Shown here piece after piece: positions 3,049 to 19,695 of a stretch of DNA of 23,114 bases. Within the stretch, counting starts at the first letter, position 1; each line of letters starts with the position of its first letter. A program made the position numbers and the translations under genes. Where the stretch lies: the IMG/VR virus record IMGVR_UViG_3300045391_005035. One strand, written 5' to 3'. The stretch is from a virus. Under the pieces are notes generated by a model that was given only the letters and a program-made list of their open reading frames with translations, did not search any database and was not told where the DNA came from.

Positions 3049-3197
3049 CTCGCGAGCGGTACCACACCACGTTCGCGTACTTGTACGGCGCTCTCGCGTT
3101 TGGGTTCGCGGTGCTCCAGCCCAAGGGCTGGGAGCTGCTCGCGATCGTCGTCAGCGCGCTCTGCGCCGCGCACCTTCACGTTCTGGGATGGCGATGA
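3045..3197 (+). CDS. 50-aa two-TM-helix membrane protein (not in ORF track)
   Basis: MTRERYHTTFAYLYGALAFGFAVLQPKGWELLAIVVSALCAAHLHVLGWR*; GTGA overlap at the 5' end and ATGA overlap at the 3' end exactly fill the gap. Confidence 0.75.
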   Translation: MTRERYHTTFAYLYGALAFGFAVLQPKGWELLAIVVSALCAAHLHVLGWR

Positions 3198-3613
3198 AAT
3201 CGGTCGAGCGCCTCGCTGCCTTCGAGGAGACGCTGGCGAAGCTCACGAAGGAGCGCGATGGGCTCCAGCAGGCGCTGGGCGACCCGCTGCTCGTCACGTG
3301 GATCGCAGAACGCGGTCCGGTTCCACGACGCCTCTCCGCGTTCGAGCTAGCCACCGTCAAGCGCATCGCGGCGCTGGAGGCGAAGATCGAGCCGCTCGAA
3401 GACGAGTGCGAGGAGCTGCTGTCCGACGTCGTGTGCGCGCTCGCAGGCATCGACGGCGAGCCAGACGACCCCGAGGTGCTCCTTCGGGCCGCCTTGGTGG
3501 CACTGAATCTGCTCCACAAGAGGGGCGGTCCGCTTCCTGAGAGTCGCGCGGTGATGCGTGCGTTGCTGCGCTACCTCAAGAGTCTAGCCAACGACGAGGA
3601 GGACGATGCGTAA
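3194..3613 (+). CDS. Hypothetical helical/coiled-coil protein
   Basis: ATG 3194 in ATGA overlap; heptad-like LAAFEETLAKLTKERDGL and IAALEAKIEPLEDECEEL. Confidence 0.75.
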   Translation: MKSVERLAAFEETLAKLTKERDGLQQALGDPLLVTWIAERGPVPRRLSAFELATVKRIAALEAKIEPLEDECEELLSDVVCALAGIDGEPDDPEVLLRAALVALNLLHKRGGPLPESRAVMRALLRYLKSLANDEEDDA

Positions 3614-3800
3614 GCGAACTCCGATTCGAGAGCCCGTAGCGTTCCACATCGACCCCAAGCAGCTGGAGCAGCTGAACGCGCTGTCTCACGAACTGCGCGT
3701 GCCGCGAGCTGAGATCATCCGCACCGCGCTCGACATCTACCTGCGAGCTGTCGAGCGCGAGCGAGAGAAGAAGCGGCTCGAACGGTTCGCACACAAATAG
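3606..3800 (+). CDS. Ribbon-helix-helix (CopG/Arc-like) DNA-binding protein
   Basis: Strand VAFHID, helix QLEQLNALSHEL, helix RAEIIRTALDIYL; GAGGAGG upstream. Confidence 0.85.
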   Translation: MRKRTPIREPVAFHIDPKQLEQLNALSHELRVPRAEIIRTALDIYLRAVEREREKKRLERFAHK

Positions 3801-3902: not shown

Positions 3903-5738
3903 TCATCGGCGCGGGCGCGAGGTCCGCTTCGAGGCTCGCTTCTTCGAGGCTCGCTTGCCTGTGTTGCGGTGCATGCCACGCGCGTCGATGACGTCGATGA
4001 TCTCCGCGGCCGACATGTCCCAGACGTGGTCGTTGGCCTCGCGCCAGTGGAGCGTGGATGCCGTTCGGCTGAGGCCTGAGTCTGGACCCTCAGCCCGCTC
4101 GACCTCTTCCACCATCTGCGGCGTCACGCGCCTCTTGCGCAGCTCGGCGGCCTGGTCGCCGTTCTCGATACCGGCTTCGTGCCACCTCGTCGCCTGCGGC
4201 ACCGAGAACCGGTGGATGAACCACGGGCCGACGTACCACTCGTCGTCGTCTGGGTCGGACGTGAACTCGGCCGCGAGCCATTCCTCGGCGGGGTAGAGCC
4301 ACTGGTTCTCTTCGTCGCCGTGGCCGCCCGCGTCCCAGCCCCAATCGTCGAACAGGATCGACTTGTACACCGGATGCGGCTTGTCCTTCGCAGGATCTTG
4401 CCAACGAGACCACGACGGAACCCGACCCTTCGGATCCTGCCCCGGGATCCGATTGTCCGGACCCGACACCGGCGCGAACATCTCCGTCTGCTCCGACGGA
4501 GGACGCGGAGGATCGCGCTGCGGCGCCAGCTCCATGAGCTTCAGGGTCATGTGCGCGATCTTGATCATCTCTTCGAGCTTCGACGGTACCCCACCGTTCT
4601 CGGTGATCTTGTAGTGGACGGCGTACGGGAACTTCACGTACTCCTCCGGCGTCACGTCGTAGGCGTTGAGAGATCCGGCCAACTCCGCTTCGCTGTACGA
4701 CAGCCCGTGCTTCATCCACTCTGCCGCGTCAGCCGCGCTCGCGGTGTTCTCGTCCCACTCCCGCGCGTACGATTCGAGGTACTCGTCTTCCGCGTCGATG
4801 CCGCCATGTTCCTCCATCGCGTCGACGTACGCTTGAAGGTGCGGTGAGATCTTGTTCGTCGAGATGTCGTTCTCTTCGAGCCACTCGTAGAACTCGTCGA
4901 CATACTTCTGGTACTTCGGCGCCGGCTTCTCGTTCTGCTTGCCCTGCGTTTGCTGCACTCGATCGTTCTTCACCTCGATGGTGACGTGCGGCTGACCCTT
5001 CGCGTCGCGCAGCGAGAAGATCGTCGTCCTGCTGGCGGCGACTTCGCGAGCGTAGCTTCCGACGCAGTGCTGCATCTTGTCGCCCTCAGCGTTGAGCTGC
5101 TCGGCGGTCGTGAGCTTCTGCGCCGTCCATCCGTCCGCTAGCTTCGCGACGACCTGGCCCTGTGGGACTGGACCTTCCTCTTCCTCCCAGCGCTGAGCTT
5201 CGTCCCATGCGGTGTCGAAGTCGTACTGACCGAGGTTTGGCCGCGTCGCCTCGTACCACTGAGAGAGCATCGTGCCGCCACGATGCATCTTACGAAGCGT
5301 TGTTCGATACTCGCGCAACATGTCGGACGGGTCGCTGACGGCGAGCGGCGTCTTCGGGTCCTGCGCCCGCACGAGCTGGTCGTACGACTTCGCGAGGTGC
5401 GTCGCCATCCACGGAAAGATCGGATCGGCGCGATGCCGCGCCTTGAACTGCGGCATCGTGGACACGAGGTCGACGGCTGCGGTGACGAAAGCTGTCGAGG
5501 GATCGTTGATCCCTGGGATGTGCGCGAGGGAGTTGGCGCCCCACTTGTCGAGATCGTCAGCGAACTGTGGATCGGCGTCCTTCACACGATCGCGCATCAC
5601 CTCGACCCACCGGTCGAGGCCGACGGTGTTGGCGACCACCGTGATCATGTCTCGAACGACGACGGGCTTCTTCGTGCCGTACGTCTTCAGGATGAACTTC
5701 AGGCGATCGTTCGTCGGATTCGGTGCGAGCTGCTGCAT
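3903..5738 (-). CDS. PcfJ-like domain protein with Trp-containing helical repeats and basic C-terminal tail
   Basis: LTTAEQLNAEGDKMQHCVGSY..IFSLRD..PHVTIEV..QTQGKQNEKP is the PcfJ signature; tail KRASKKRASKRTSRPRR. Confidence 0.85.
   Translation of the reverse strand: MQQLAPNPTNDRLKFILKTYGTKKPVVVRDMITVVANTVGLDRWVEVMRDRVKDADPQFADDLDKWGANSLAHIPGINDPSTAFVTAAVDLVSTMPQFKARHRADPIFPWMATHLAKSYDQLVRAQDPKTPLAVSDPSDMLREYRTTLRKMHRGGTMLSQWYEATRPNLGQYDFDTAWDEAQRWEEEEGPVPQGQVVAKLADGWTAQKLTTAEQLNAEGDKMQHCVGSYAREVAASRTTIFSLRDAKGQPHVTIEVKNDRVQQTQGKQNEKPAPKYQKYVDEFYEWLEENDISTNKISPHLQAYVDAMEEHGGIDAEDEYLESYAREWDENTASAADAAEWMKHGLSYSEAELAGSLNAYDVTPEEYVKFPYAVHYKITENGGVPSKLEEMIKIAHMTLKLMELAPQRDPPRPPSEQTEMFAPVSGPDNRIPGQDPKGRVPSWSRWQDPAKDKPHPVYKSILFDDWGWDAGGHGDEENQWLYPAEEWLAAEFTSDPDDDEWYVGPWFIHRFSVPQATRWHEAGIENGDQAAELRKRRVTPQMVEEVERAEGPDSGLSRTASTLHWREANDHVWDMSAAEIIDVIDARGMHRNTGKRASKKRASKRTSRPRR
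3927..3956. repeat. 15-bp tandem duplication encoding KRASK-KRASK
   Basis: CTTCGAGGCTCGCTT x2. Confidence 0.9.
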
Positions 5739-5957: not shown

Positions 5958-6517
5958 CGACGACTCCTGTTCCACAACCACCAGGCGACCAAGCCGACCG
6001 CCACCACGCCACTGACGCCGATACCGATCGCCTGAAGATCCACGTCGCCCATCCCCCGCGCACCGACCATCTCGTGCATGCGCTCACGCGGCACGAACAG
6101 CGCCGACGGCGTCTGCGTCGCGAGCTTCGGTCCGATCCACTCGAACTCGCCCCACACGCCCGCTGGCTGCGCCGGCAGCGGAGGTCGCGCAGGCTCCGCC
6201 TTGCTCCACCCGGTGAACCTCCAGTTGCGCGGGTCGTCGCTCGCGCTCCGGTCGAGCAGATCTTGACTGCGACCAGTCGGCTGAGGAAGCGGCGCGCCTG
6301 GAGGGAAGTAGCGGCCGACGTGCTGTGGACCGCGTACGAGCTGCTTGAAGAAGTCGCCTGTGAGCTGCCAACCCGCACGTGGGTCGTAGACGGTCTCGAC
6401 GATGTCGCTGTCGGGGATCTGATGGAACCACACGCCGTCGCCGGCCGGCTGAAGCGGCGACGCGAGGCCGCGCTTCATGCGCTCGTCGATCGTGATGTAC
6501 GTGGGCATCATCGTCAT
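5954..6517 (-). CDS. C-terminally anchored membrane protein
   Basis: Ends GARGMGDVDLQAIGIGVSGVVAVGLVAWWLWNRSRR (TM helix plus basic stop-transfer); no N-terminal signal peptide. Confidence 0.75.
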   Translation of the reverse strand: MTMMPTYITIDERMKRGLASPLQPAGDGVWFHQIPDSDIVETVYDPRAGWQLTGDFFKQLVRGPQHVGRYFPPGAPLPQPTGRSQDLLDRSASDDPRNWRFTGWSKAEPARPPLPAQPAGVWGEFEWIGPKLATQTPSALFVPRERMHEMVGARGMGDVDLQAIGIGVSGVVAVGLVAWWLWNRSRR

Positions 6518-6533
6518 GATCGATCAGATCCTA

Positions 6534-6824
6534 CTACCGCTCGTCGCTCGGGTCACCGGGCAGCCGCTCGTGCTTGTCGGTGTCCTGACCAAACACGCCG
6601 GACATCGCATCGAGCGCACGATGCGCGTGGTCGCGCGCGAGGATCATCTCCTGCGCGGCGGTCCCCATCGCAGGCAACGCCGACTGCGAGATGCGCTCCT
6701 GCTTGCGCGCGTAGCCGCGGTAGAGCATCCACGCGCGACGCTCTTCGTCCGGCCACGACGCGCTTGCTGCATCGAGGACCGCTTGCGCCTTCGCAACGTC
6801 GGGTGGCATCGGTGCTCGCGGCAT
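6534..6824 (-). CDS. Hypothetical 96-aa helical protein
   Basis: Fits the - strand block without overlap; TACGCT lies 7 nt before the ATG. Confidence 0.65.
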   Translation of the reverse strand: MPRAPMPPDVAKAQAVLDAASASWPDEERRAWMLYRGYARKQERISQSALPAMGTAAQEMILARDHAHRALDAMSGVFGQDTDKHERLPGDPSDER

Positions 6825-6980
6825 GTCGCAAAGCGTAGCCGATGTGCGTCGCGGCAGCTTGCTTCACAAGACGCGTCGTGACGATACACGTAAGTGCCTG
6901 AACCCTGTGCGCACTTTCTCGTCACAGTTGAGACCGCTTGACGCAAGCCGGTCGCGCGGGTCATGGTCGCCCTCCAAACG

Positions 6981-7010
6981 AAAAAAGCCCCGGGACTAAA
7001 CCCGGGGCTT
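6981..7010 (-). terminator. Rho-independent terminator
   Basis: - strand reads AAGCCCCGGG-TTTAGT-CCCGGGGC-TTTTTT. Confidence 0.85.
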
Positions 7011-7088
7011 CATCGGCCGGATGGGGGAGTTAGCGCTCCAACCTCTGGCTGGTACCCGACCCAGGACGAGTGGATCGAGTGGTACTTG
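6981..7088 (-). ncRNA. Predicted ~108-nt antisense (counter-transcribed) RNA
   Basis: Bounded by promoter TGGACA-N17-TATGGT and an intrinsic terminator; folds by eye into three hairpins; no ATG-initiated ORF with a stop inside. Confidence 0.6.
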
Positions 7089-7094
7089 CGACGC

Positions 7095-7123
7095 ACCATA
7101 GGGCGCGGCTGAGCGCGTGTCCA
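7095..7123 (-). promoter_or_regulatory. sigma70-type promoter for the antisense RNA
   Basis: -35 TGGACA (7123-7118), 17-nt spacer, -10 TATGGT (7100-7095). Confidence 0.65.
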
Positions 7124-10100
7124 GCACATTCCATTGGGGTGTGGCTGTGAGCGGCGTACGATCGGCTGTAGCACTTCGGCGTCTGTACGAGCGTTACCGC
7201 ACCACGTCGTCGCTCAAGACGTCGACACGCAAGCCGGGCGAGTGGCTGGCCCTCGACGCTGGCTCTGAAGATGCATTGACGTTCGCGGCGGCTCTCGGAT
7301 TCTCGTCGGACGCGGCGGGATCCGAGAAGCTCGTCAACGCGCTCCCTCCCCTGAATGGTGCCCTCGGCGTCGTTCATGCGATGGACGTCCGTCTCGTTGC
7401 TCACCGCGCTCCCGGGAACACCAAGCTCGACGTTCGCTTCACGCTCGTCCCGAACGGCAAGAGCCTCAAGGGCTCGAAACCGACCCCCAGATCTGCGCTC
7501 CCGACGACCGTCTCCCAGCTCGACCTGCCATCCGAAAAGGTAGACAGGTTCGAAAAGGTAGACAGGCAGGCAAACGACCGCAAACACCGCGGCACAACTG
7601 CTGGCACGGAAGATGCCGATGGGTCGCTTTCCGTCTCGGCGGACGCTACATACGCAACCGGTGGCACACCTTCGAGCGACGAAGCCGTGCCGATGGTTTT
7701 GCCTGACGGGAGCCCGCTGCCGGACTTCTCGGACATGCTCACGATGGATGAGCTGTCCGACATGTGGCGCGAAGGGAAGCTCCCCGATCTCGTCACGGTA
7801 GAGACGCTCTTCGGTGACCTGCGGAACATCGTCCCGCAGATGCTCGAAGACGATCTGGAGATCGACCTCGCCGCCATCGGGGAGCGGCTCAAGTCCCGCA
7901 CGGTTCTGGCGAGCGGTGCTCCTCCGATCGAACCCGTCGCCAGCGATACCGGCGACACGTGGGCGAACGTCTCACGCGATGTTGTCGCGTGGGTGCGAAG
8001 CCACGTCAGAGCGCTTCGGATCGATGGCGCACGAGGGCACCTCACCGTGCTCGCGCCAAGTCCTGGTACCGGCAAGAGCCGCGGCATGATGGAGGCCGCG
8101 GACGAAGAGCAGGGCGCTCGTCGGCGCGTGGGGTACGCGGTGCTCTCGCGGGCGCAGATCCCCGAGGTCGCAGAGCGTCTTCGTGCGACCAATCCGCAGG
8201 TGCGACTCACGGTGATCGAGGGCCGACACAGCGGGAACTGCTCCTACATGGAGCAGATCGAAGTCGCGACGAGCGCCGGCTTCGCGCCGGGATCGACCGT
8301 CTGTCCCAGCTGCGAGAAGTACCCGCGCAGCATGACGGGTCATCGCGACATCTGCCGCTACTACGGGTCGCGCCTCGAAGCGTACCGTGAGCGGCGCAAG
8401 GCCGAGATCCTTCGTTACGCTCCGCCGATCATCCTCACAACACACGCGTCGGCGATCCAGGGCTCGCACATCGTCAAGCGCCGCTTCCAGAGCTTCTGGG
8501 AGTTCGACACGCTTTTCCTGGACGAAGATCCGACGTCGTCGATGGTGACCACGCACGAGATCTCCGAGAGCGCGCTCAACTACTCGCAGCTCGACCACAA
8601 GGGCAATCCAGACGGCCCCACGCTCGGCACGCGCCTGCTGCGCGAGGCGATGGAACGCGCGCTTCGCGAACGCGAAGCCGCTGCTGAGCGCGGATTCGTG
8701 GTCCACCGCGTGGTCCAAGGACAGACCGAGGTAGGCGAAGATCGCATTCACTCGCGCGAGCACGGGTCGTCGTACGCCGGCGGCGATCTGCACGCGCTCC
8801 TGGAGACGATCGCTCGCGGGATGGGCAGCTCACTGCGAGCGCTTGGCAGCTCGACGATCGACGGCATGTCTGGCGCCCCTCCCAAGGGCGAGATCATGAA
8901 CCTCACAGCCGACGAGGTCGCCACCCGCTACCCCAACAGATACCTCGCCGCGCTCTTTGCAACGCTCGAAGAGGAGTCGGTGGCGATCGCGGACGCGAAG
9001 GCCGCAGGCATTGATCTTGAGCCAGCGTACCGCACCCACCTCGACCTGGTTCCAGACGGCGAGGGCAATCATCGAGCGGTGATCCGGCTGCACCTGCTGC
9101 GTGGCTACGCAAACGGCCGCACGAACATCCTCATCGGCGACGCGTACGCGAACACGCAGCACTACGAGGGGCTCTTCGACAGGCACAGGCGCGACGGCGT
9201 CGTGCATGAGCTGAAAAAGCGGGCGATCTGGCCCACGACCTCGTCGCTGATCCGCATCGTCACGCATGCAGGGACGAAGCACCTGCGGAACACCACGCAG
9301 CTCTTCGAGCACCTCGAAGTGAAGGTGCGTCCGGTGCTTGAGCTGGAGCGCGAGCGCAAGATCGTCTTCTACATCCACAAGGAGATGGTCCGGAACCTGA
9401 AGGAATGGCTGGTGGCCCGATGGGCTGAGGCCGTCGACGAGGCGCAGGTCATCGAAGATCACGCGGACACCGCTCCCGAGAAGGAGCGCAAGAACAGGAT
9501 CCTCGACGATCACCTGGAAAAGCTCGGGTACGCGGTGGAGCACTGGGGCGGCGGTCGCGGCAAGGACGTCTACAAGGACTTCGACACGTTCATCGGCGTC
9601 ACCGAATACATGCCCAACGTCGGCGGCATGATCCACGAGGCGAACACCGTCGCGTCACTCGCGGCCCCGGGCAACACGCGCGTCGCACACTGGAACGGAT
9701 ACGCACCCCGCAAGGGCAAGGCGACCTTCGCGAACAGCCTCGCCAACGCAAGCCCGTTCTACCAGGCGGCGTTCCACCGCAAGGCCACAGACGAGCTTGC
9801 GCAGGCAGTGCACCGTATCCGGCCCGCGATCCCGTCGCGAGACGGTCGGCAGAAGCGTGCGTACGTGTTCGGGCACAGCGTTCCGTGGAGCGACGAGCTG
9901 ATCGCTGCGACAGCTGCGACAGCGGTCGTGGACGGAGGCAAAGCTGAGGTCGACCTGGAGACCGAGGCGCTTGGTCGCGGGCCTCGCTTCAGCATCACGG
10001 AGACGCTCGGCCTGGTGAGCGAACGCGAAGTGGCTGGAGCCATCGCAGAGGTGTTCAAGGTGCTCGAATGCTGGTCCCATGCGTTCGCCCACGCACTGCT

Positions 10101-10470
10101 TGGTGTGCCAGCATGGGCCATGCTCGAAGATCTGGTCGTTCGTGGATCAACGACGCATGGCGGCCTCGGTCAGCGTTCGGTTTTGCTTAATATATATCTC
10201 CCCGATGAGGCGAGTCCGATTGCTCAGCGCGTCGAACGTCCTCCTCCGTTCTGGGCGGCCATTGCATCACAGCTCCAGCGGAACAGCTCGATCTACCTTG
10301 CCGGGTTCCGCCGCTTCTGCGCTTCCCTGCCGAACCCATATCCGCGACGCCATCGCAGTTCATGGATGCCTCGCGGCTCGAACGGCTACGAGTTCTACGG
10401 AGATCGCGATCGTTTTCAGGCGGTTCTCGACGCGTTCTACGCGCCGAACGCAGAGAGGCTGAAGTTCTGA
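7117..10470 (+). CDS. Large SF2-like helicase/replication protein with a 4-Cys insert (start uncertain)
   Basis: Walker A APSPGTGKS (8053-8079); C..CPSC..C cluster (~8240-8355); IILTTHA; Walker B FDTLFLDEDP (8503-8532); HWGGGRGKDVYKD; motif VI-like QAVHRIRP (9802-9825). Confidence 0.8.
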   Translation: MSSTFHWGVAVSGVRSAVALRRLYERYRTTSSLKTSTRKPGEWLALDAGSEDALTFAAALGFSSDAAGSEKLVNALPPLNGALGVVHAMDVRLVAHRAPGNTKLDVRFTLVPNGKSLKGSKPTPRSALPTTVSQLDLPSEKVDRFEKVDRQANDRKHRGTTAGTEDADGSLSVSADATYATGGTPSSDEAVPMVLPDGSPLPDFSDMLTMDELSDMWREGKLPDLVTVETLFGDLRNIVPQMLEDDLEIDLAAIGERLKSRTVLASGAPPIEPVASDTGDTWANVSRDVVAWVRSHVRALRIDGARGHLTVLAPSPGTGKSRGMMEAADEEQGARRRVGYAVLSRAQIPEVAERLRATNPQVRLTVIEGRHSGNCSYMEQIEVATSAGFAPGSTVCPSCEKYPRSMTGHRDICRYYGSRLEAYRERRKAEILRYAPPIILTTHASAIQGSHIVKRRFQSFWEFDTLFLDEDPTSSMVTTHEISESALNYSQLDHKGNPDGPTLGTRLLREAMERALREREAAAERGFVVHRVVQGQTEVGEDRIHSREHGSSYAGGDLHALLETIARGMGSSLRALGSSTIDGMSGAPPKGEIMNLTADEVATRYPNRYLAALFATLEEESVAIADAKAAGIDLEPAYRTHLDLVPDGEGNHRAVIRLHLLRGYANGRTNILIGDAYANTQHYEGLFDRHRRDGVVHELKKRAIWPTTSSLIRIVTHAGTKHLRNTTQLFEHLEVKVRPVLELERERKIVFYIHKEMVRNLKEWLVARWAEAVDEAQVIEDHADTAPEKERKNRILDDHLEKLGYAVEHWGGGRGKDVYKDFDTFIGVTEYMPNVGGMIHEANTVASLAAPGNTRVAHWNGYAPRKGKATFANSLANASPFYQAAFHRKATDELAQAVHRIRPAIPSRDGRQKRAYVFGHSVPWSDELIAATAATAVVDGGKAEVDLETEALGRGPRFSITETLGLVSEREVAGAIAEVFKVLECWSHAFAHALLGVPAWAMLEDLVVRGSTTHGGLGQRSVLLNIYLPDEASPIAQRVERPPPFWAAIASQLQRNSSIYLAGFRRFCASLPNPYPRRHRSSWMPRGSNGYEFYGDRDRFQAVLDAFYAPNAERLKF
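7533..7566. repeat. 16-bp direct repeat at 18-bp period inside the helicase N-terminal linker
   Basis: CGAAAAGGTAGACAGG at 7533-7548 and 7551-7566. Confidence 0.9.
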
Positions 10471-11168
10471 TGGCGTACCAATCACGTGCCCGAGCTGCCG
10501 CCAACCGCAAGGCGCCTCCGCCGCCTCCGGAGCTTCGGGAGGCGAGGCTCACGATCCCCGACGCGCTGGTCGCCTGGGCGCGCGAGACGGATCGTCAGAT
10601 CGCCTGGGCGCGTCCGTTCGGCGACGAAGTCGCTGCCATCCTCGCGGAACCGCAGCCGTTGATGCCGAACGTGCTCGCAGTGCTCCTGAACCGTCTCGAC
10701 GCGATCGTCAGCGCGGCGATCGGCGAGGGCCGCTCGGACCTGCTCGGCGGCTTCGATCTCCAGACGGCCGAATGGCTCGGTCTGCATGTGCACATCGAGA
10801 CGGCGCGTGGACACCTGCATGTGGGGCCCGATCCGCGCACGCGATCGTTCGAGGGCGCCTCGGAGCCGCCGTGGACCTACAACGAGCTGCGTGTCGTGTT
10901 TGACGCGAAGGAGCCCGCCGCAGTGGACCTCGCGTGGAAGGCGAAGCAGATGTTGCTCGAAGTGTTCCCGCAGGCACGCATCGAAGAGCTGGTGTTCGAC
11001 AAGCCGATCACCATCTGCGTCGCTTGCGAACAGCCCGCGGGAGGTGTCATGCTCACCACCAACGCGGGCGACGAGTACCACGCAAAGTGCTGGTCGGAGA
11101 TGGTTGCACCCCTCCCAGAGCACCTGCGCGCGATGCTCAAGAAAGCTCCGAAGGCGAAGGCGAGATGA
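10470..11168 (+). CDS. Hypothetical protein with C-terminal CxxC...HxxC (LIM-like) Zn finger
   Basis: TGATG overlap with helicase; CVAC-x16-HAKC. Confidence 0.78.
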   Translation: MAYQSRARAAANRKAPPPPPELREARLTIPDALVAWARETDRQIAWARPFGDEVAAILAEPQPLMPNVLAVLLNRLDAIVSAAIGEGRSDLLGGFDLQTAEWLGLHVHIETARGHLHVGPDPRTRSFEGASEPPWTYNELRVVFDAKEPAAVDLAWKAKQMLLEVFPQARIEELVFDKPITICVACEQPAGGVMLTTNAGDEYHAKCWSEMVAPLPEHLRAMLKKAPKAKAR

Positions 11169-15644: not shown

Positions 15645-16070
15645 ATGAGCAGACAGCAGACGGAGTTCGTCCGAGAGCTTCTTGAGCGGAGCGAACGCGT
15701 TGCAGCGCTCTTCCCAGTGAACGATGTCACGAATAGCCACGCGAACGCGTTGCGTCACATTGCGCAGCAGTTGGAGACGCTGATCCCGAAGGACGAGGAT
15801 GTGGCCGTTGCAGTGACGTTTGCGAGCGCACTCGGAGTAGCGAGTCTCGACGAACTCGATCAGGCTGTCAGGGACAAGCTGCTTGATGCAGCGAAGGAGA
15901 AGCGTCGCGGTGATGAGGCGAAGGCGGAGGCGGAGCGCCTGCGACTCGAAGCGAAGGCGGAGGCGGAGCGCCTGCGACTCGAAGCGGAGGCGGAGGCGGA
16001 GCGCCTGCGACTCGAAGCGGAGGCTGCGAGGACGGACGCCGTCACGGCGGTAGAGGGAGAAAAGACGTGA
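15645..16070 (+). CDS. Helical protein with 11-aa tandem repeats
   Basis: GGAG RBS; (A[K/E]AEAERLRLE)x3. Confidence 0.8.
   Translation: MSRQQTEFVRELLERSERVAALFPVNDVTNSHANALRHIAQQLETLIPKDEDVAVAVTFASALGVASLDELDQAVRDKLLDAAKEKRRGDEAKAEAERLRLEAKAEAERLRLEAEAEAERLRLEAEAARTDAVTAVEGEKT
15918..16024. repeat. 33-bp tandem repeat x3 plus partial copy
   Basis: GCGAAGGCGGAGGCGGAGCGCCTGCGACTCGAA at 15918, 15951 and 15984 (one mismatch in the third copy). Confidence 0.95.
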
Positions 16071-16459: not shown

Positions 16460-18031
16460 ATGAGCTTCGTATCTGGACAGAGACCTGTTGCTCCATGGGC
16501 GGATCACCACTGGTGGGGCATCTTTTCGAGCGCTGACTCTTTGCCAAATACGGCTGGGTTCAGCGCGTCCGGATATGCGGGCGACGTCCAGCGTGGAGAT
16601 CTAGCCTGGGCCGACGACGCCGGTCAGCTCTACGTCTGCGCCGATCCTACGCCCGGCGCCGCCGTGTGGCAGCAGGTGTCGGTAGGACCGATTCCGGTCA
16701 TCCCGGGTGGGCAGATCGCATTCAGCCAGTTCGATCCAGGCGTCGGCGTTGCCAACCGATGGAACGTCGCAATGACAGCTGCTCAGGCGCGCATGCAGCT
16801 GTCCCCGTACACGCTGCTGCTGGACGGTTCGTTTTCGTTCACCCAGAAGGTGGTGCTCGCGGTTCCGATGTTCATCGTCGGCACGACCGGCGCAGAGATG
16901 GCGTGGAGCGTCAGCGGCGACGCTGGCATCGAGATTCAGCCAAGCGCCGCCGGGACAGCCATTTCGTTCGTAGCGCTGACGGGCCCCACGCCGTTCGACG
17001 GGCAGGCGGACATCGGACTTCTGATCCACGGCGCCAGGTGCATCTTCTCGAACATGTACGTCTCGAACTGGGGCGGCATTGGCATTAGCGTCAACGCGGA
17101 CATCAACCTCGGAACCAACGCGAACGAGTGCTCGTTCACCAAGGTACAGCTCGTTCTCTGCGGAAACAGCTTGGCGCATCAGACTGGTAGCAACGCCGGC
17201 ATGTATTTCAACGGGGGCGACTCCAACGGATGCACCATGATCGGGTGCGACGCGACCGATTCACGTCGTGGATTCTACGACTCCAGCTTCCTGGGCAACA
17301 CGTTCCTGGGGTGCTCCGTGGAGGGATGCAACGACAGGTTCACGAAGAATCCGAACGATCCGACGGTCGGCTACGGCTTCATCACCGACGACGGGAACGC
17401 GCGATCGCAGTTCTTCGGCTGCTACATGGAAGGCGACTCGCAGGGCGACATCATCCTGCCGTCAATGGTCTTCGGCGGCATCGTTTCCAACCGTGGCAAC
17501 GCCACGACGTTCACGTCGGGCGCGGTGACGCCAACGCTGGCCCTCTCGCGCTCGTACGTGAATCCGATCGATGGCGTCCCAACCGAAGCAGCAGTTGCGC
17601 TCGGAGCCATTGGATCGGAAGCCGGACTTGTCGAGTCCGTCTCGGTAATCAACACGAGCACCGGTATCCCGATTCAGGAGCCAATGAAGCTCTACTGGGG
17701 GAAGCACGCGTGGACCCCGGACTGGTGGACCTGGACCTACGCCGGACTCGATATCGGCGACTTCATGCGCATGAAGAAGGCGCAGCTGTGGTTTCCCGGA
17801 GATCTGTACCTGGGCTACCTCGCTGGCACCAACTACGGTATGCGTCAGGTGATCGGCGGCGCCAACCCGTCTGTGGTTCCAGACAGCGCGCAGAACGGAG
17901 AGCCGTGGCGCGTCGGAGACACGTGGATCGTCGCCACGCCAGCGCCTGGCGCGCCGAGTTCGTATCGATGCACCAGTGTTGACAACCTGGGCGTGCCCAC
18001 GTGGAAAGTGGACAGGAGGGTCGATCCGTGA
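16460..18031 (+). CDS. Beta-helix spike protein A
   Basis: N-terminal module shared with the 13559 fibre; Asn/Cys-ladder beta-helix (NANEC, GGDSNGC, DSSFLGNTF); C-terminal PWRVGD..YRCT..GVPTWK. Confidence 0.82.
   Translation: MSFVSGQRPVAPWADHHWWGIFSSADSLPNTAGFSASGYAGDVQRGDLAWADDAGQLYVCADPTPGAAVWQQVSVGPIPVIPGGQIAFSQFDPGVGVANRWNVAMTAAQARMQLSPYTLLLDGSFSFTQKVVLAVPMFIVGTTGAEMAWSVSGDAGIEIQPSAAGTAISFVALTGPTPFDGQADIGLLIHGARCIFSNMYVSNWGGIGISVNADINLGTNANECSFTKVQLVLCGNSLAHQTGSNAGMYFNGGDSNGCTMIGCDATDSRRGFYDSSFLGNTFLGCSVEGCNDRFTKNPNDPTVGYGFITDDGNARSQFFGCYMEGDSQGDIILPSMVFGGIVSNRGNATTFTSGAVTPTLALSRSYVNPIDGVPTEAAVALGAIGSEAGLVESVSVINTSTGIPIQEPMKLYWGKHAWTPDWWTWTYAGLDIGDFMRMKKAQLWFPGDLYLGYLAGTNYGMRQVIGGANPSVVPDSAQNGEPWRVGDTWIVATPAPGAPSSYRCTSVDNLGVPTWKVDRRVDP
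17327..17385. repeat. 59-bp repeat, copy 1 (spike A)
   Basis: 58/59 identical to 19045-19103 (single synonymous T/C). Confidence 0.92.
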
Positions 18032-18294: not shown

Positions 18295-19695
18295 ATGAGC
18301 GGTCTGCCATTCAAGACGACGCCTGCGCGTTCGTCACTGTACGACGACATCGTCGAGCCGAAGCTCGGCGCTACGACCGTACAAGAGGCGATCGATGCGT
18401 TGAAGCAGCAGGCCCCGGGTCCCACCGCGACGCGGACACTGGCATCCTTCGATCCGGGCCCGCAAGACCCACGACGATGGAATACCGCCCTCGAATCAGC
18501 CGAGGCGGCGATGGCTGTCGACCCGTTCGTGCTGCTGATCGATGCCACCTACTCGCTCACAGAGCAGTGGGTGCTCTCGCGTCAGATGATCGTGACCGGG
18601 GCCCAGATCGGCAGCTTGCAGTGGACCGTGTCTGGCAATGCCGGCATTCGCATTCCACACGCAGCGTCGTACACGTCGATCGAGGGCCTCGGCATCGGTG
18701 GACCGCATCCATTCTACGGCGCGTTCGATGTCGGCATGCTGATCGAGGGAGCGCGCTGTCGACTAAATCGCGTCGTGTTCAGCAACTGGAACGGCATCGG
18801 CCTGCATCTCGATGCGGCAGTGCAGTCAGGTACAGATGCGAACCAGTGTGTCTTCTACGACCTCATCGTCGCTTTGTGCGGAAACAATCTCGGGATCCAA
18901 GACGGCACGAACGCCGGCATCCGACTTGTCGGAGGTGACGCGAACGGTTGTCTGTTTTCTGGCTGCGTGATCGTCGATTGTCGGCGCGGCGTACTCGACC
19001 AGAGTTTCCTCGGCAACACGTACGTCATGTGCACCGTGGAATCGTGCAACGACAGGTTCACGAAGAACCCGAACGATCCGACGGTCGGCTACGGCTTCAT
19101 CACGACGAACGCCAATGCGCGCAGCACGTTCTGCGGCTGCTATACGGAGAGCGACTCGGAGAGCGACGTGGTCCGTCCCGCGATCATCGTGGGCGGGATC
19201 TCCGCTGACCAGCCAAATCGCGGCACTGCGCCGCGCATCGGCCAAGGGATCTATCCGGGATACGGCATCGGCAGCGATGTCGGTGGCGTCTTCATGGGCA
19301 CCGCTGACGGCATCCCGGCCGACAATCTGATCGCATACTTCTCCACGGGGCTCGCACTGCCGGTGTACACCGTGTACGGTCGCAGTGGGCGCCCGTGGTT
19401 CTCCTGGAACTATGCGAACCTGGGCGTGGGCGACATCTGGCGCTGGAAACCGTACGGCGTCTGGACGCCATACGACTTCCACCGAGGCGATCCGAACTCG
19501 CTCGTGGGCGGCCTTCGTGAGGTCGTAGCCGCCGACACCGCGAGCGCCGCAACAAGCGACGGTCTTCCGTGGCAGGTGGGCGACCGGCTGATCATCCGAG
19601 CGCCAGCGTCAGGTCAGCCGAGCACGTACCGATGCACCGCTGTGGACGGGCAGGGCGTGCCCACGTGGAAGGTCGAGAGCACCGTCGCGCCGTAG
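18295..19695 (+). CDS. Beta-helix spike protein B (paralog of spike A)
   Basis: Collinear with spike A from (Q/S)FDPG onward; different N-terminus YDDIVEPKLGATTVQEAIDAL, a trimeric-fibre anchor-like motif. Confidence 0.82.
   Translation: MSGLPFKTTPARSSLYDDIVEPKLGATTVQEAIDALKQQAPGPTATRTLASFDPGPQDPRRWNTALESAEAAMAVDPFVLLIDATYSLTEQWVLSRQMIVTGAQIGSLQWTVSGNAGIRIPHAASYTSIEGLGIGGPHPFYGAFDVGMLIEGARCRLNRVVFSNWNGIGLHLDAAVQSGTDANQCVFYDLIVALCGNNLGIQDGTNAGIRLVGGDANGCLFSGCVIVDCRRGVLDQSFLGNTYVMCTVESCNDRFTKNPNDPTVGYGFITTNANARSTFCGCYTESDSESDVVRPAIIVGGISADQPNRGTAPRIGQGIYPGYGIGSDVGGVFMGTADGIPADNLIAYFSTGLALPVYTVYGRSGRPWFSWNYANLGVGDIWRWKPYGVWTPYDFHRGDPNSLVGGLREVVAADTASAATSDGLPWQVGDRLIIRAPASGQPSTYRCTAVDGQGVPTWKVESTVAP
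19045..19103. repeat. 59-bp repeat, copy 2 (spike B)
   Basis: 58/59 identical to 17327-17385. Confidence 0.92.

What the first reader, a model, noticed from the sequence alone, without database searches (positions are those of the whole stretch)
6938..7123. Predicted antisense RNA controlling a helicase gene: plasmid-style copy control in a virus
Seen: a - strand terminator with no - strand gene feeding it, plus a near-consensus - strand promoter (TGGACA-N17-TATGGT) whose -35 overlaps the helicase GTG. Together they define a ~108-nt RNA with hairpin 1 (GUACC/CGAUCCA pairing UGGGUCG/GGUAC, loop CUCGUCC), hairpin 2 (GGAG-CGCUAA-CUCC) and the terminator. A weaker + strand promoter (TTGACG 6938-N18-CATGGT) would give a helicase leader fully complementary to it. 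Established: counter-transcribed RNAs regulate rep genes in plasmids. Inference: an undescribed ctRNA-helicase replicon, possibly maintaining a plasmid-like prophage. This is my best candidate for a new system.
Basis: partly seen in the sequence, partly recalled or inferred. Interest (0 to 1): 0.75.

Follow-up and report, generated by a model that had tools for sequence, protein, structure and literature searches.

The report
Antisense switch gating a viral helicase
Large uncultured virus-like genomes from soil and sediment metagenomes carry, in front of an unusual DNA helicase gene, a conserved small antisense RNA plus a hidden mini-gene arranged as in the copy-number switch of plasmid R1, which suggests they ration their own replication like plasmids; no RNA or experiment shows this yet.

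Summary
Sense promoter, opposing promoter, three-hairpin antisense RNA (~110 nt) and terminator-like hairpin recur upstream of the homologous helicase in 23 distinct loci (28-70% protein identity), three of them outside the training set. Promoter hexamers are kept while spacers are randomised; stems covary; G-U pairs favour the antisense strand 84:11. This overlap is in 23/23 loci, and the antisense promoter lies inside the leader, not over the helicase start. The middle loop carries a YUNR kissing motif in 17/21 loci and has flipped between sense and antisense strands several times. That is the R1 CopA/tap/repA layout, without sequence kinship (no Rfam hit), on an XPD/DinG-fold helicase. Copy control of a plasmid-like prophage stays inference: complete relatives have an orphan ParB-like gene and a Xer-like recombinase but no ParA, and no origin was found. 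The scan noted similar antisense/leader/helicase layouts on other DNA (unchecked notes).

The parts
6938..6967 (+). Sense promoter (-35 at 6938-6943, N18, -10 at 6962-6967) for the leader-helicase mRNA
   Evidence: TTGAC invariant in 20/20 aligned loci (anchor of the alignment), -10 conserved, spacer variable; also in held-out L043
6976..7088 (-). Predicted antisense RNA, about 110-113 nt, three hairpins (ends inferred, not mapped)
   Evidence: Fold z -4.8 in the window, z -2.0 to -6.7 in 20 loci; covariation; CM finds held-out L043 at 53.6 bits
6976..7011 (-). Hairpin 3: intrinsic terminator-like stem with U-rich tail (tail imperfect in several relatives)
   Evidence: 99% of cells paired, 8 of 11 pairs with two-sided change
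7016..7049 (.). Hairpin 2: bulged stem; loop 7030-7035 reads UUAGCG in the mRNA and CGCUAA in the antisense RNA (putative kissing loop)
   Evidence: YUNR at the loop's 5' end on one strand in 17/21 loci; orientation flips on the helicase tree
7051..7085 (-). Hairpin 1 of the antisense RNA; complementary to the ribosome-binding region and start codon of the leader ORF
   Evidence: weaker on the sense strand (mean -12.9 vs -17.8 kcal/mol)
7079..7150 (+). Leader ORF, 23 codons (GTG start), stop overlapping the helicase start by 4 nt; Tap-like
   Evidence: 17-29 codons with the same overlap in 20/20 loci and in L043, L021, L052; 0 stops in 456 codons vs 24 and 30 in the other frames
7095..7123 (-). 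Antisense promoter (-35 7123-7118, N17, -10 7100-7095), embedded in the leader ORF
   Evidence: 22 loci: hexamer identity 0.70 and 0.69 vs spacer 0.32, spacer always 17
7122..7147 (+). Hairpin that sequesters the helicase ribosome-binding region
   Evidence: helicase start regions fold at mean -17.2 vs -13.6 kcal/mol for 100 neighbouring genes (p 2e-4, related sequences)
7147..10470 (+). 1107-aa SF2 helicase of XPD/DinG fold with four invariant Cys; extra N- and C-terminal domains unassigned
   Evidence: Foldseek E 1e-12 to DinG/XPD; no Pfam, PHROG or NCBIfam hit
10470..11168 (+). Conserved 232-aa gene overlapping the helicase stop by 1 nt, with a C-terminal Cys/His cluster; probable partner, function not determined
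   Evidence: 54% identical to the gene in the same place in L003; same place in most close relatives; overlap

Best explanation
An R1-like antisense switch rations the helicase. The + promoter makes an mRNA with a structured leader, a 23-codon leader ORF and the helicase gene. The helicase's own ribosome-binding site is folded away, so it is translated mainly when a ribosome finishes the leader ORF and restarts at the overlapping start codon. A promoter inside the leader ORF fires the other way and makes a ~110-nt three-hairpin RNA. This RNA first contacts the mRNA through the middle loop (U-turn motif), then pairs over the leader's ribosome-binding site and start codon and blocks its translation, and so the helicase's. 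Shown by sequence comparison: both promoters, RNA structure and its strand, leader ORF, overlap, sequestering hairpin, loop motif, helicase fold. Inferred from established plasmid biology: that the RNA is made, binds and represses. Further inferred, and weaker (about 0.45): that the helicase is the rate-limiting replication initiator and the circuit sets copy number of an extrachromosomal state. The confidence given is for the regulatory mechanism.
For: Whole layout in 23/23 distinct loci, including L043, L021 and L052 that were not used to define it. Promoter hexamers conserved, spacer near random, always 17 nt; background rate of such sites 5e-4 to under 1e-4 per base. -35 sits +41/+44/+47 from the leader start in 20 of 22 loci, i.e. 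indels come in codons. Structure: 94.8% cells paired, 20/27 pairs with two-sided changes, 0/500 shuffles, slid controls 36-61%. G-U on antisense 84 vs 11 on sense; antisense more stable in 19/21. Leader frame has no stops; start-plus-TGA overlap 21/21 vs 27/75 background, with varying second residues. YUNR in 11 of 14 distinct loops vs about 0.1 expected per loop; L027's loop is the UUGGCG motif named for ColIb-P9 (reference title in PMC10724649). R1 mechanism: PMC5717011; YUNR on either sense or antisense loop: PMC4485353. For a replication role: one copy per genome, inteins in three homologues, no PolA or PolB in four large relatives, next to primase and exonuclease genes in L052.
Against: No transcript or functional data. 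The loci are related, so counts are not independent trials, and the structural alignment was fitted to the structure. The window itself is one of two loci where the sense strand folds slightly better. Four loci lack YUNR (L008, L009, L010, L020). The U tail is imperfect in several relatives. No origin, iterons or synonymous-site dip in or near the helicase. XPD/DinG helicases are known as repair and CRISPR-accessory enzymes, not initiators (own knowledge; titles), and relatives carry a second SF2 helicase beside an AEP primase. No ParA or actin-like partition ATPase in four relatives.
Confidence: 0.75

Rival explanations
1. Same antisense-leader switch, but it serves a lysis/lysogeny or timing decision of an integrating virus (as lambda OOP or P22 Sar do), keeping the helicase off in the prophage or early infection; it is not a copy-number loop. 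This is a rival for the purpose, not for the mechanism.
For: All four large relatives encode a tyrosine recombinase; G004 has a tRNA-Arg gene about 300 bp from it, a common attP setting; no ParA or actin-like ATPase; a second helicase-primase module exists.
Against: The recombinase is about 350 aa with best matches to XerA/C/D models, which also fits dimer resolution; all four carry a ParB-like gene; no host-flanked copy was found among 185,579 genomes, only one 3.4-kb MAG contig; an apparently unregulated antisense promoter fits dosage sensing.
Confidence: 0.35
2. ColE1- or pSYSA-like: the sense transcript is a replication primer and the three-hairpin antisense RNA blocks primer formation; the leader ORF is secondary.
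For: Size (~110 nt) and three stem-loops resemble RNA I, and pSYSA has an antisense RNA plus small ORF upstream of a primase-helicase Rep (PMC9978351).
Against: The exact stop-start overlap in 23/23 loci and the sequestered helicase start are needed for coupling, not for priming; in pSYSA the small ORF's translation was dispensable and it is separated from the rep gene by a spacer.
Confidence: 0.08
3. Antisense-driven transcription attenuation (pT181/pIP501 type) or plain transcriptional interference between convergent promoters; the RNA's pairing over the leader start is incidental.
For: Convergent promoters are real; hairpin 3 is followed by 2-4 U on the sense strand in several relatives.
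Against: No + strand terminator between promoter and helicase; hairpin 3 lies at the very 5' end and has A-C mismatches on the sense strand; interference alone would not conserve stems, loop motif and overlap.
Confidence: 0.08
4. The hairpins act as DNA (origin or operator for the helicase or a dimeric repressor) and no RNA is involved.
For: The loop inverts freely between lineages, as a spacer between palindromic protein-binding arms would; no other origin was found.
Against: Stems covary instead of keeping sequence, tolerate G-U on one strand only, sit between a promoter and a U-tailed hairpin, and the loop keeps UUNG whichever way it faces.
Confidence: 0.05

Closest known systems
Plasmid R1 (IncFII) CopA / tap / repA
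   Same: Antisense RNA opposite the leader region blocks translation of a short leader ORF to which the downstream replication gene is coupled (PMC5717011); similar leader length (Tap about 24 codons, own knowledge); kissing loop with U-turn motif (PMC4485353).
   Different: No sequence match to CopA in Rfam; three hairpins; gated gene is an 1107-aa XPD/DinG-fold helicase with no plasmid homologue; no CopB-type gene in the cassette; origin not found; carrier is a 100-300 kb virus-like genome.
I-complex and IncL/M plasmids (ColIb-P9 Inc/repY/repZ, IncB RNAI)
   Same: Antisense stem-loop, leader peptide, coupling, and the UUGGCG-type loop (identical in L027; one base different in the window).
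   Different: No activating pseudoknot: a locus's own loop pairs with its downstream leader no better than foreign loops (4.8 vs 5.0 nt).
Synechocystis pSYSA asRNA1 / ssr7036 / CyRepA1 (PMC9978351)
   Same: Three-stem antisense RNA and a small ORF in front of a ~1000-aa helicase-containing gene that is the Rep of a ~100-kb replicon; the best precedent for a helicase as Rep.
   Different: There the RNA lies over the coding part of a 64-aa ORF that does not overlap the rep start, translation was not needed, and CyRepA1 has a primase domain; here no primase domain was recognised.
RNA-based origins of extrachromosomal mycobacterial prophages (PMC7157519)
   Same: Viruses that use small RNAs to run a plasmid-like prophage state.
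   Different: Those need no protein and sit beside parABS; here a protein gene is gated and no ParA was found.
Phage lambda OOP and P22 Sar antisense RNAs (own knowledge)
   Same: Short phage RNAs from their own promoter to a terminator, opposite a regulatory or replication-region transcript.
   Different: They target cII or ant directly; no coupled leader ORF in front of a helicase.
XPD/DinG SF2 helicases
   Same: Fold, Walker A/B, motif VI, four invariant Cys between them.
   Different: 9-14% identity; extra ~130-aa N-terminal domain, long disordered linker and C-terminal domain; replication-gene-like setting.

Membership tests
R1-type antisense / leader-peptide control (works-like) | Opposing promoter and terminator defining a structured antisense RNA over the leader | tested here: met
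   (sequence level)
R1-type antisense / leader-peptide control (works-like) | Short leader ORF overlapping the start of the controlled gene | tested here: met
   23/23 loci
R1-type antisense / leader-peptide control (works-like) | Antisense RNA covers the leader's translation start, and the controlled gene's own start is sequestered | tested here: met
   sequestration is a modest folding difference
R1-type antisense / leader-peptide control (works-like) | YUNR motif in a recognition loop of sense or antisense RNA | tested here: met
   17/21 loci, 11/14 distinct loops
R1-type antisense / leader-peptide control (works-like) | RNA is expressed, binds the mRNA and represses | not testable with these tools
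   Needs RNA data or a reporter
IncFII replicon (membership) | RNA belongs to the Rfam CopA family | tested here: not met
   No relevant Rfam match at E up to 5 in the window or E up to 1 in five relatives
IncFII replicon (membership) | Controlled gene is a RepA-family initiator | tested here: not met
   XPD/DinG fold; no match in 72,556 plasmids
I-complex plasmid control | Long-range pseudoknot between target loop and rep start region | tested here: not met
pT181/pIP501 attenuation | Inducible sense-strand terminator just before the controlled gene | tested here: not met
   None by pattern scan or in the folds; weak terminators could be missed
ColE1/pSYSA primer control | Sense RNA acts as replication primer at a nearby origin | not testable with these tools
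   No origin located
CyRepA1-type Rep | Primase domain fused to the helicase | tested here: inconclusive
   No Pfam hit; N-terminal domain was not folded and searched alone
XPD/DinG helicases | SF2 fold of the XPD/DinG type | tested here: met
XPD/DinG helicases | Four-Cys Fe-S site between Walker A and B | tested here: met
   C375, C396, C399, C413 (numbered from 7117) invariant in 26 sequences; metal binding itself not shown
Phage-plasmid | Virion genes | tested here: inconclusive
   Relatives are IMG/VR records with a muramidase endolysin and a highly conserved 257-aa beta-sandwich protein whose weak best matches are jelly-roll capsid proteins (E 0.012, Z about 5); not in the window itself
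Phage-plasmid | Partition ATPase (ParA, actin-like) | tested here: not met
   0 of 4 relatives; tubulin-type not searched
Phage-plasmid | ParB-like protein and resolvase-like recombinase | tested here: met
   4 of 4 relatives; the recombinase may equally be an integrase
Phage-plasmid | Maintained extrachromosomally in a host | not testable with these tools
   No cultured host; G004 has direct terminal repeats, G002's helicase runs across its contig ends

The most novel reading that the evidence does not exclude
A lineage of 100-300 kb tailless (jelly-roll capsid) bacterial viruses lives as low-copy plasmids whose replication initiator is an Fe-S XPD/DinG-type helicase, rationed by an independently evolved CopA/Tap-like circuit; the variable, repeatedly inverted kissing loop defines incompatibility or superinfection-exclusion groups among them.
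Probability: 0.3. Interest if true: 0.85.

Novelty: new variant of a known kind. Interest (0 to 1): 0.62.

Why it matters
It gives a new, well-supported antisense RNA family and shows the R1 copy-control logic, described for enterobacterial plasmids, built from unrelated parts in large uncultured virus-like genomes. It points to an XPD/DinG-fold helicase as a dosage-limited, possibly initiating replication protein, a role not established for that family. The repeated inversion of the loop between mRNA and antisense RNA is a natural test of the U-turn rule that the motif may sit on either partner. The 210-bp cassette uses sigma-70-like promoters, so it can be tested in E. coli reporters, and its diverged variants are candidate orthogonal RNA switches.

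Tried and rejected
Rfam: only two chance miRNA-family hits in the window, none in five relatives. No RNA holder listed among sequencing runs; DNA contigs of X1 (possibly the source) span 6500-7800 and X2 covers 6500-7175 without differences, so the sequence is not an assembly error, but the runs may be one campaign. GTG 7117 as helicase start: rejected, not conserved. A - strand protein gene feeding the terminator: the 54-aa and 185-aa ORFs over the region were not pursued because the promoter/terminator spacing and covariation explain the element as RNA. Leader peptide as a type I toxin: rejected, peptides are neither conserved nor hydrophobic. Pseudoknot: negative. Extra copies or trans targets of the RNA: one copy per genome. 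Origin search: no iterons, flat synonymous conservation, GC skew of G001 does not point to the locus. No helicase homologue in GenBank phages or PLSDB plasmids. Terminase_6N, ParA, ParB_N, actin-like, PolA, PolB not found in four relatives; no HK97 capsid, portal or terminase among the top PHROG/Pfam families of 109 ORFs of G001 (lists are cut at 25). The CM misses the distant clade (L021, L052) although the layout is there. Fold search of the capsid candidate was weak. Literature searches found no description of this RNA or of such control on a viral XPD/DinG helicase; the library lacks most subscription papers. No own genome was held. Host not determined.

Full report
Observation. The quoted promoters, hairpins and terminator are in the sequence. 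The - strand promoter is the only sigma-70-like site in 8 kb and the terminator is the strongest of four; by count alone neither exceeds shuffles, so the window by itself proves little. The predicted RNA folds into three hairpins at -52.1 kcal/mol, z -4.8. Rfam has no relevant match. Public DNA contigs confirm the letters.

The gene. The ORF ending at 10470 has no Pfam, PHROG, NCBIfam or PDB sequence hit. It has 29 close and about 70 total homologues, all from metagenomes, three with inteins. Walker A, a DEDP Walker B, motif VI and four Cys are invariant. The AlphaFold model (pLDDT 75) matches DinG, CasDinG and XPD best, E 1e-12. So 'helicase' holds, of XPD/DinG fold, with added domains.

Conservation of the upstream element. 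I fetched loci by three routes and kept 20 distinct ones after removing duplicates. All have, in order, a + promoter, a terminator-like hairpin facing the - strand, a middle hairpin, a third hairpin and a - strand promoter. Scanning each 310-nt upstream region blind, the best - strand promoter fell at the same place in all 20, always with a 17-nt spacer although 16-18 were allowed. Over 22 loci the hexamers are 0.70 and 0.69 identical and the spacer 0.32; T1 and G3 of the -35 and T1 of the -10 are invariant without being imposed by the scan. Such sites occur at 5e-4 per base or less in a relative's genome.

The RNA and its strand. Each antisense sequence folds into the same three hairpins, z -2.0 to -6.7. 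On a structure-fitted alignment of 21 sequences 94.8% of cells pair, 20 of 27 pairs show two-sided changes, no shuffle reaches this and slid partners fall to 36-61%; relatedness and fitting inflate these numbers. G-U pairs occur 84 times on the - strand against 11 that would be G-U on the + strand, and the - strand is more stable in 19 of 21 loci, the window being an exception. A covariance model found a locus it was not built from, L043 in a 298-kb record, at 53.6 bits, and every predicted feature was there. There is one copy per genome.

The conserved helicase start is GTG 7147, not 7117. In all 20 loci that start codon is followed by A, so that a TGA overlaps it, and this TGA ends an open frame of 17-29 codons beginning in the 3' arm of hairpin 1. 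In the window it is 7079-7150. The frame has no stop in 456 codons against 24 and 30 in the other frames; the overlap pattern is 21/21 against 27/75 for neighbouring genes, with Ser, Thr, Met or Ile as second residue. The antisense -35 lies 41, 44 or 47 nt after the leader start in 20 of 22 loci (L019 taken from its second start), so length changes come in codons. The peptides are not conserved, so translation matters, not the product. The helicase start region folds more strongly than those of 100 neighbouring genes. Two distant loci that the RNA model cannot see, L021 and L052 (28-33% helicase identity), still show a terminator-like hairpin, an N17 antisense promoter at +41 and +40, and a 22- or 19-codon leader overlapping a TTG start. 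The layout thus holds in 23 of 23 loci examined.

The loop. The middle loop begins with YUNR on one of the two strands in 17 of 21 loci and 11 of 14 distinct loops. It faces the mRNA in the window, L004, L006, L025 and L043, and the antisense RNA in twelve others. On the helicase tree these states are interleaved, with starred sister pairs of opposite state, which needs about four or more inversions if the region follows the gene. [quoted passage not shown] L027 carries the UUGGCG loop named for ColIb-P9 (reference list of PMC10724649). No pseudoknot partner was found.

Mechanism. [quoted passage not shown] I infer the same here with confidence about 0.75: the antisense RNA kisses the middle loop, pairs over the leader's start, and so shuts the only efficient route to helicase translation. 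Expression and repression are not shown.

Purpose. Carriers are 106-298 kb records in IMG/VR. G001 encodes a muramidase, an AEP primase, a second SF2 helicase, an exonuclease and a tyrosine recombinase. Four relatives lack PolA, PolB, ParA, an actin-like ATPase and Terminase_6N but all have a ParB-like gene and a Xer-like recombinase. Three have a very conserved 257-aa protein with weak jelly-roll capsid matches, so they are probably tailless viruses; this is suggestive only and the gene is outside the window. Dependence on the host polymerase, inteins and dosage-type control fit an initiator-helicase, and pSYSA offers a precedent for antisense RNA + small ORF + helicase-type Rep (PMC9978351). 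Against it, no origin was found and a tRNA gene beside the recombinase of G004 hints at integration. I put copy control of an extrachromosomal state at about 0.45 and a lysogeny or timing role at about 0.35.

Comparison and novelty. It works like R1 CopA/tap/repA but is not a member of the IncFII or I-complex families: RNA and protein are unrelated and there is no pseudoknot. RNA-run plasmid prophages are known in mycobacteriophages but by another route (PMC7157519). My paper searches found no description of this element. Unchecked notes of this scan report similar antisense/leader/helicase layouts in other phages, so the theme may be recurrent; I did not test them and reached my reading before seeing them. 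Verdict: real feature, new variant of a known kind, interest 0.62.

Noticed in passing
G001:119250-120020 (L041:5250-6020, - strand); also G002, G004: Highly conserved 257-aa beta-sandwich protein (251 homologues, the best 120 at 61-81%) with weak jelly-roll capsid matches; with no HK97 capsid or terminase found, these 150-300 kb genomes may be an undescribed group of large tailless viruses.
   Followed up: partly
window 6825-6937: Left part of the intergenic gap holds GTGAC/GTCAC-type inverted motifs, also in L001, L002, L003, L006, L026, but the whole stretch is missing in L004, L008, L024, L025, L027; possible operator or divergent promoter region.
   Followed up: no
window 10470-11168: 232-aa gene coupled to the helicase stop, conserved in place, with a Cys/His cluster; candidate partner protein.
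   Followed up: partly
L009, L010, L019 and L007 upstream of the cassette; window 3188-3613: In this clade the cassette follows directly on a + strand gene resembling the window's 141-aa ORF at 3188-3613, instead of the divergent PcfJ block, so the cassette does not depend on the divergent genes.
   Followed up: no
L012, P0009, P0026, P0029: Helicase homologues carry inteins (Hom_end or LAGLIDADG type).
   Followed up: no
L032:2839-2912 (G004): Intact tRNA-Arg(CCT) gene about 300 bp from the tyrosine recombinase; possible attP or virus-encoded tRNA.
   Followed up: partly
L048-L051: Orphan ParB-like gene (about 306 aa) without a neighbouring ParA in all four large relatives.
   Followed up: partly
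L022: The only hit among prokaryote genomes is a 3.4-kb contig in a Phycisphaeraceae MAG; too short to trust as a host assignment.
   Followed up: no
window 3903-5738 and 3606-3800: PcfJ-domain protein with a basic C-terminal tail, converging on a ribbon-helix-helix gene; both conserved in place in close relatives.
   Followed up: partly
window 15968-16052: Three tandem 33-nt repeats in the 141-aa ORF at 15645-16070 (source of a chance Rfam miRNA hit).
   Followed up: no
window 16460-18031 and 18295-19695: Two adjacent paralogous beta-helix-like proteins sharing internal and C-terminal segments.
   Followed up: no
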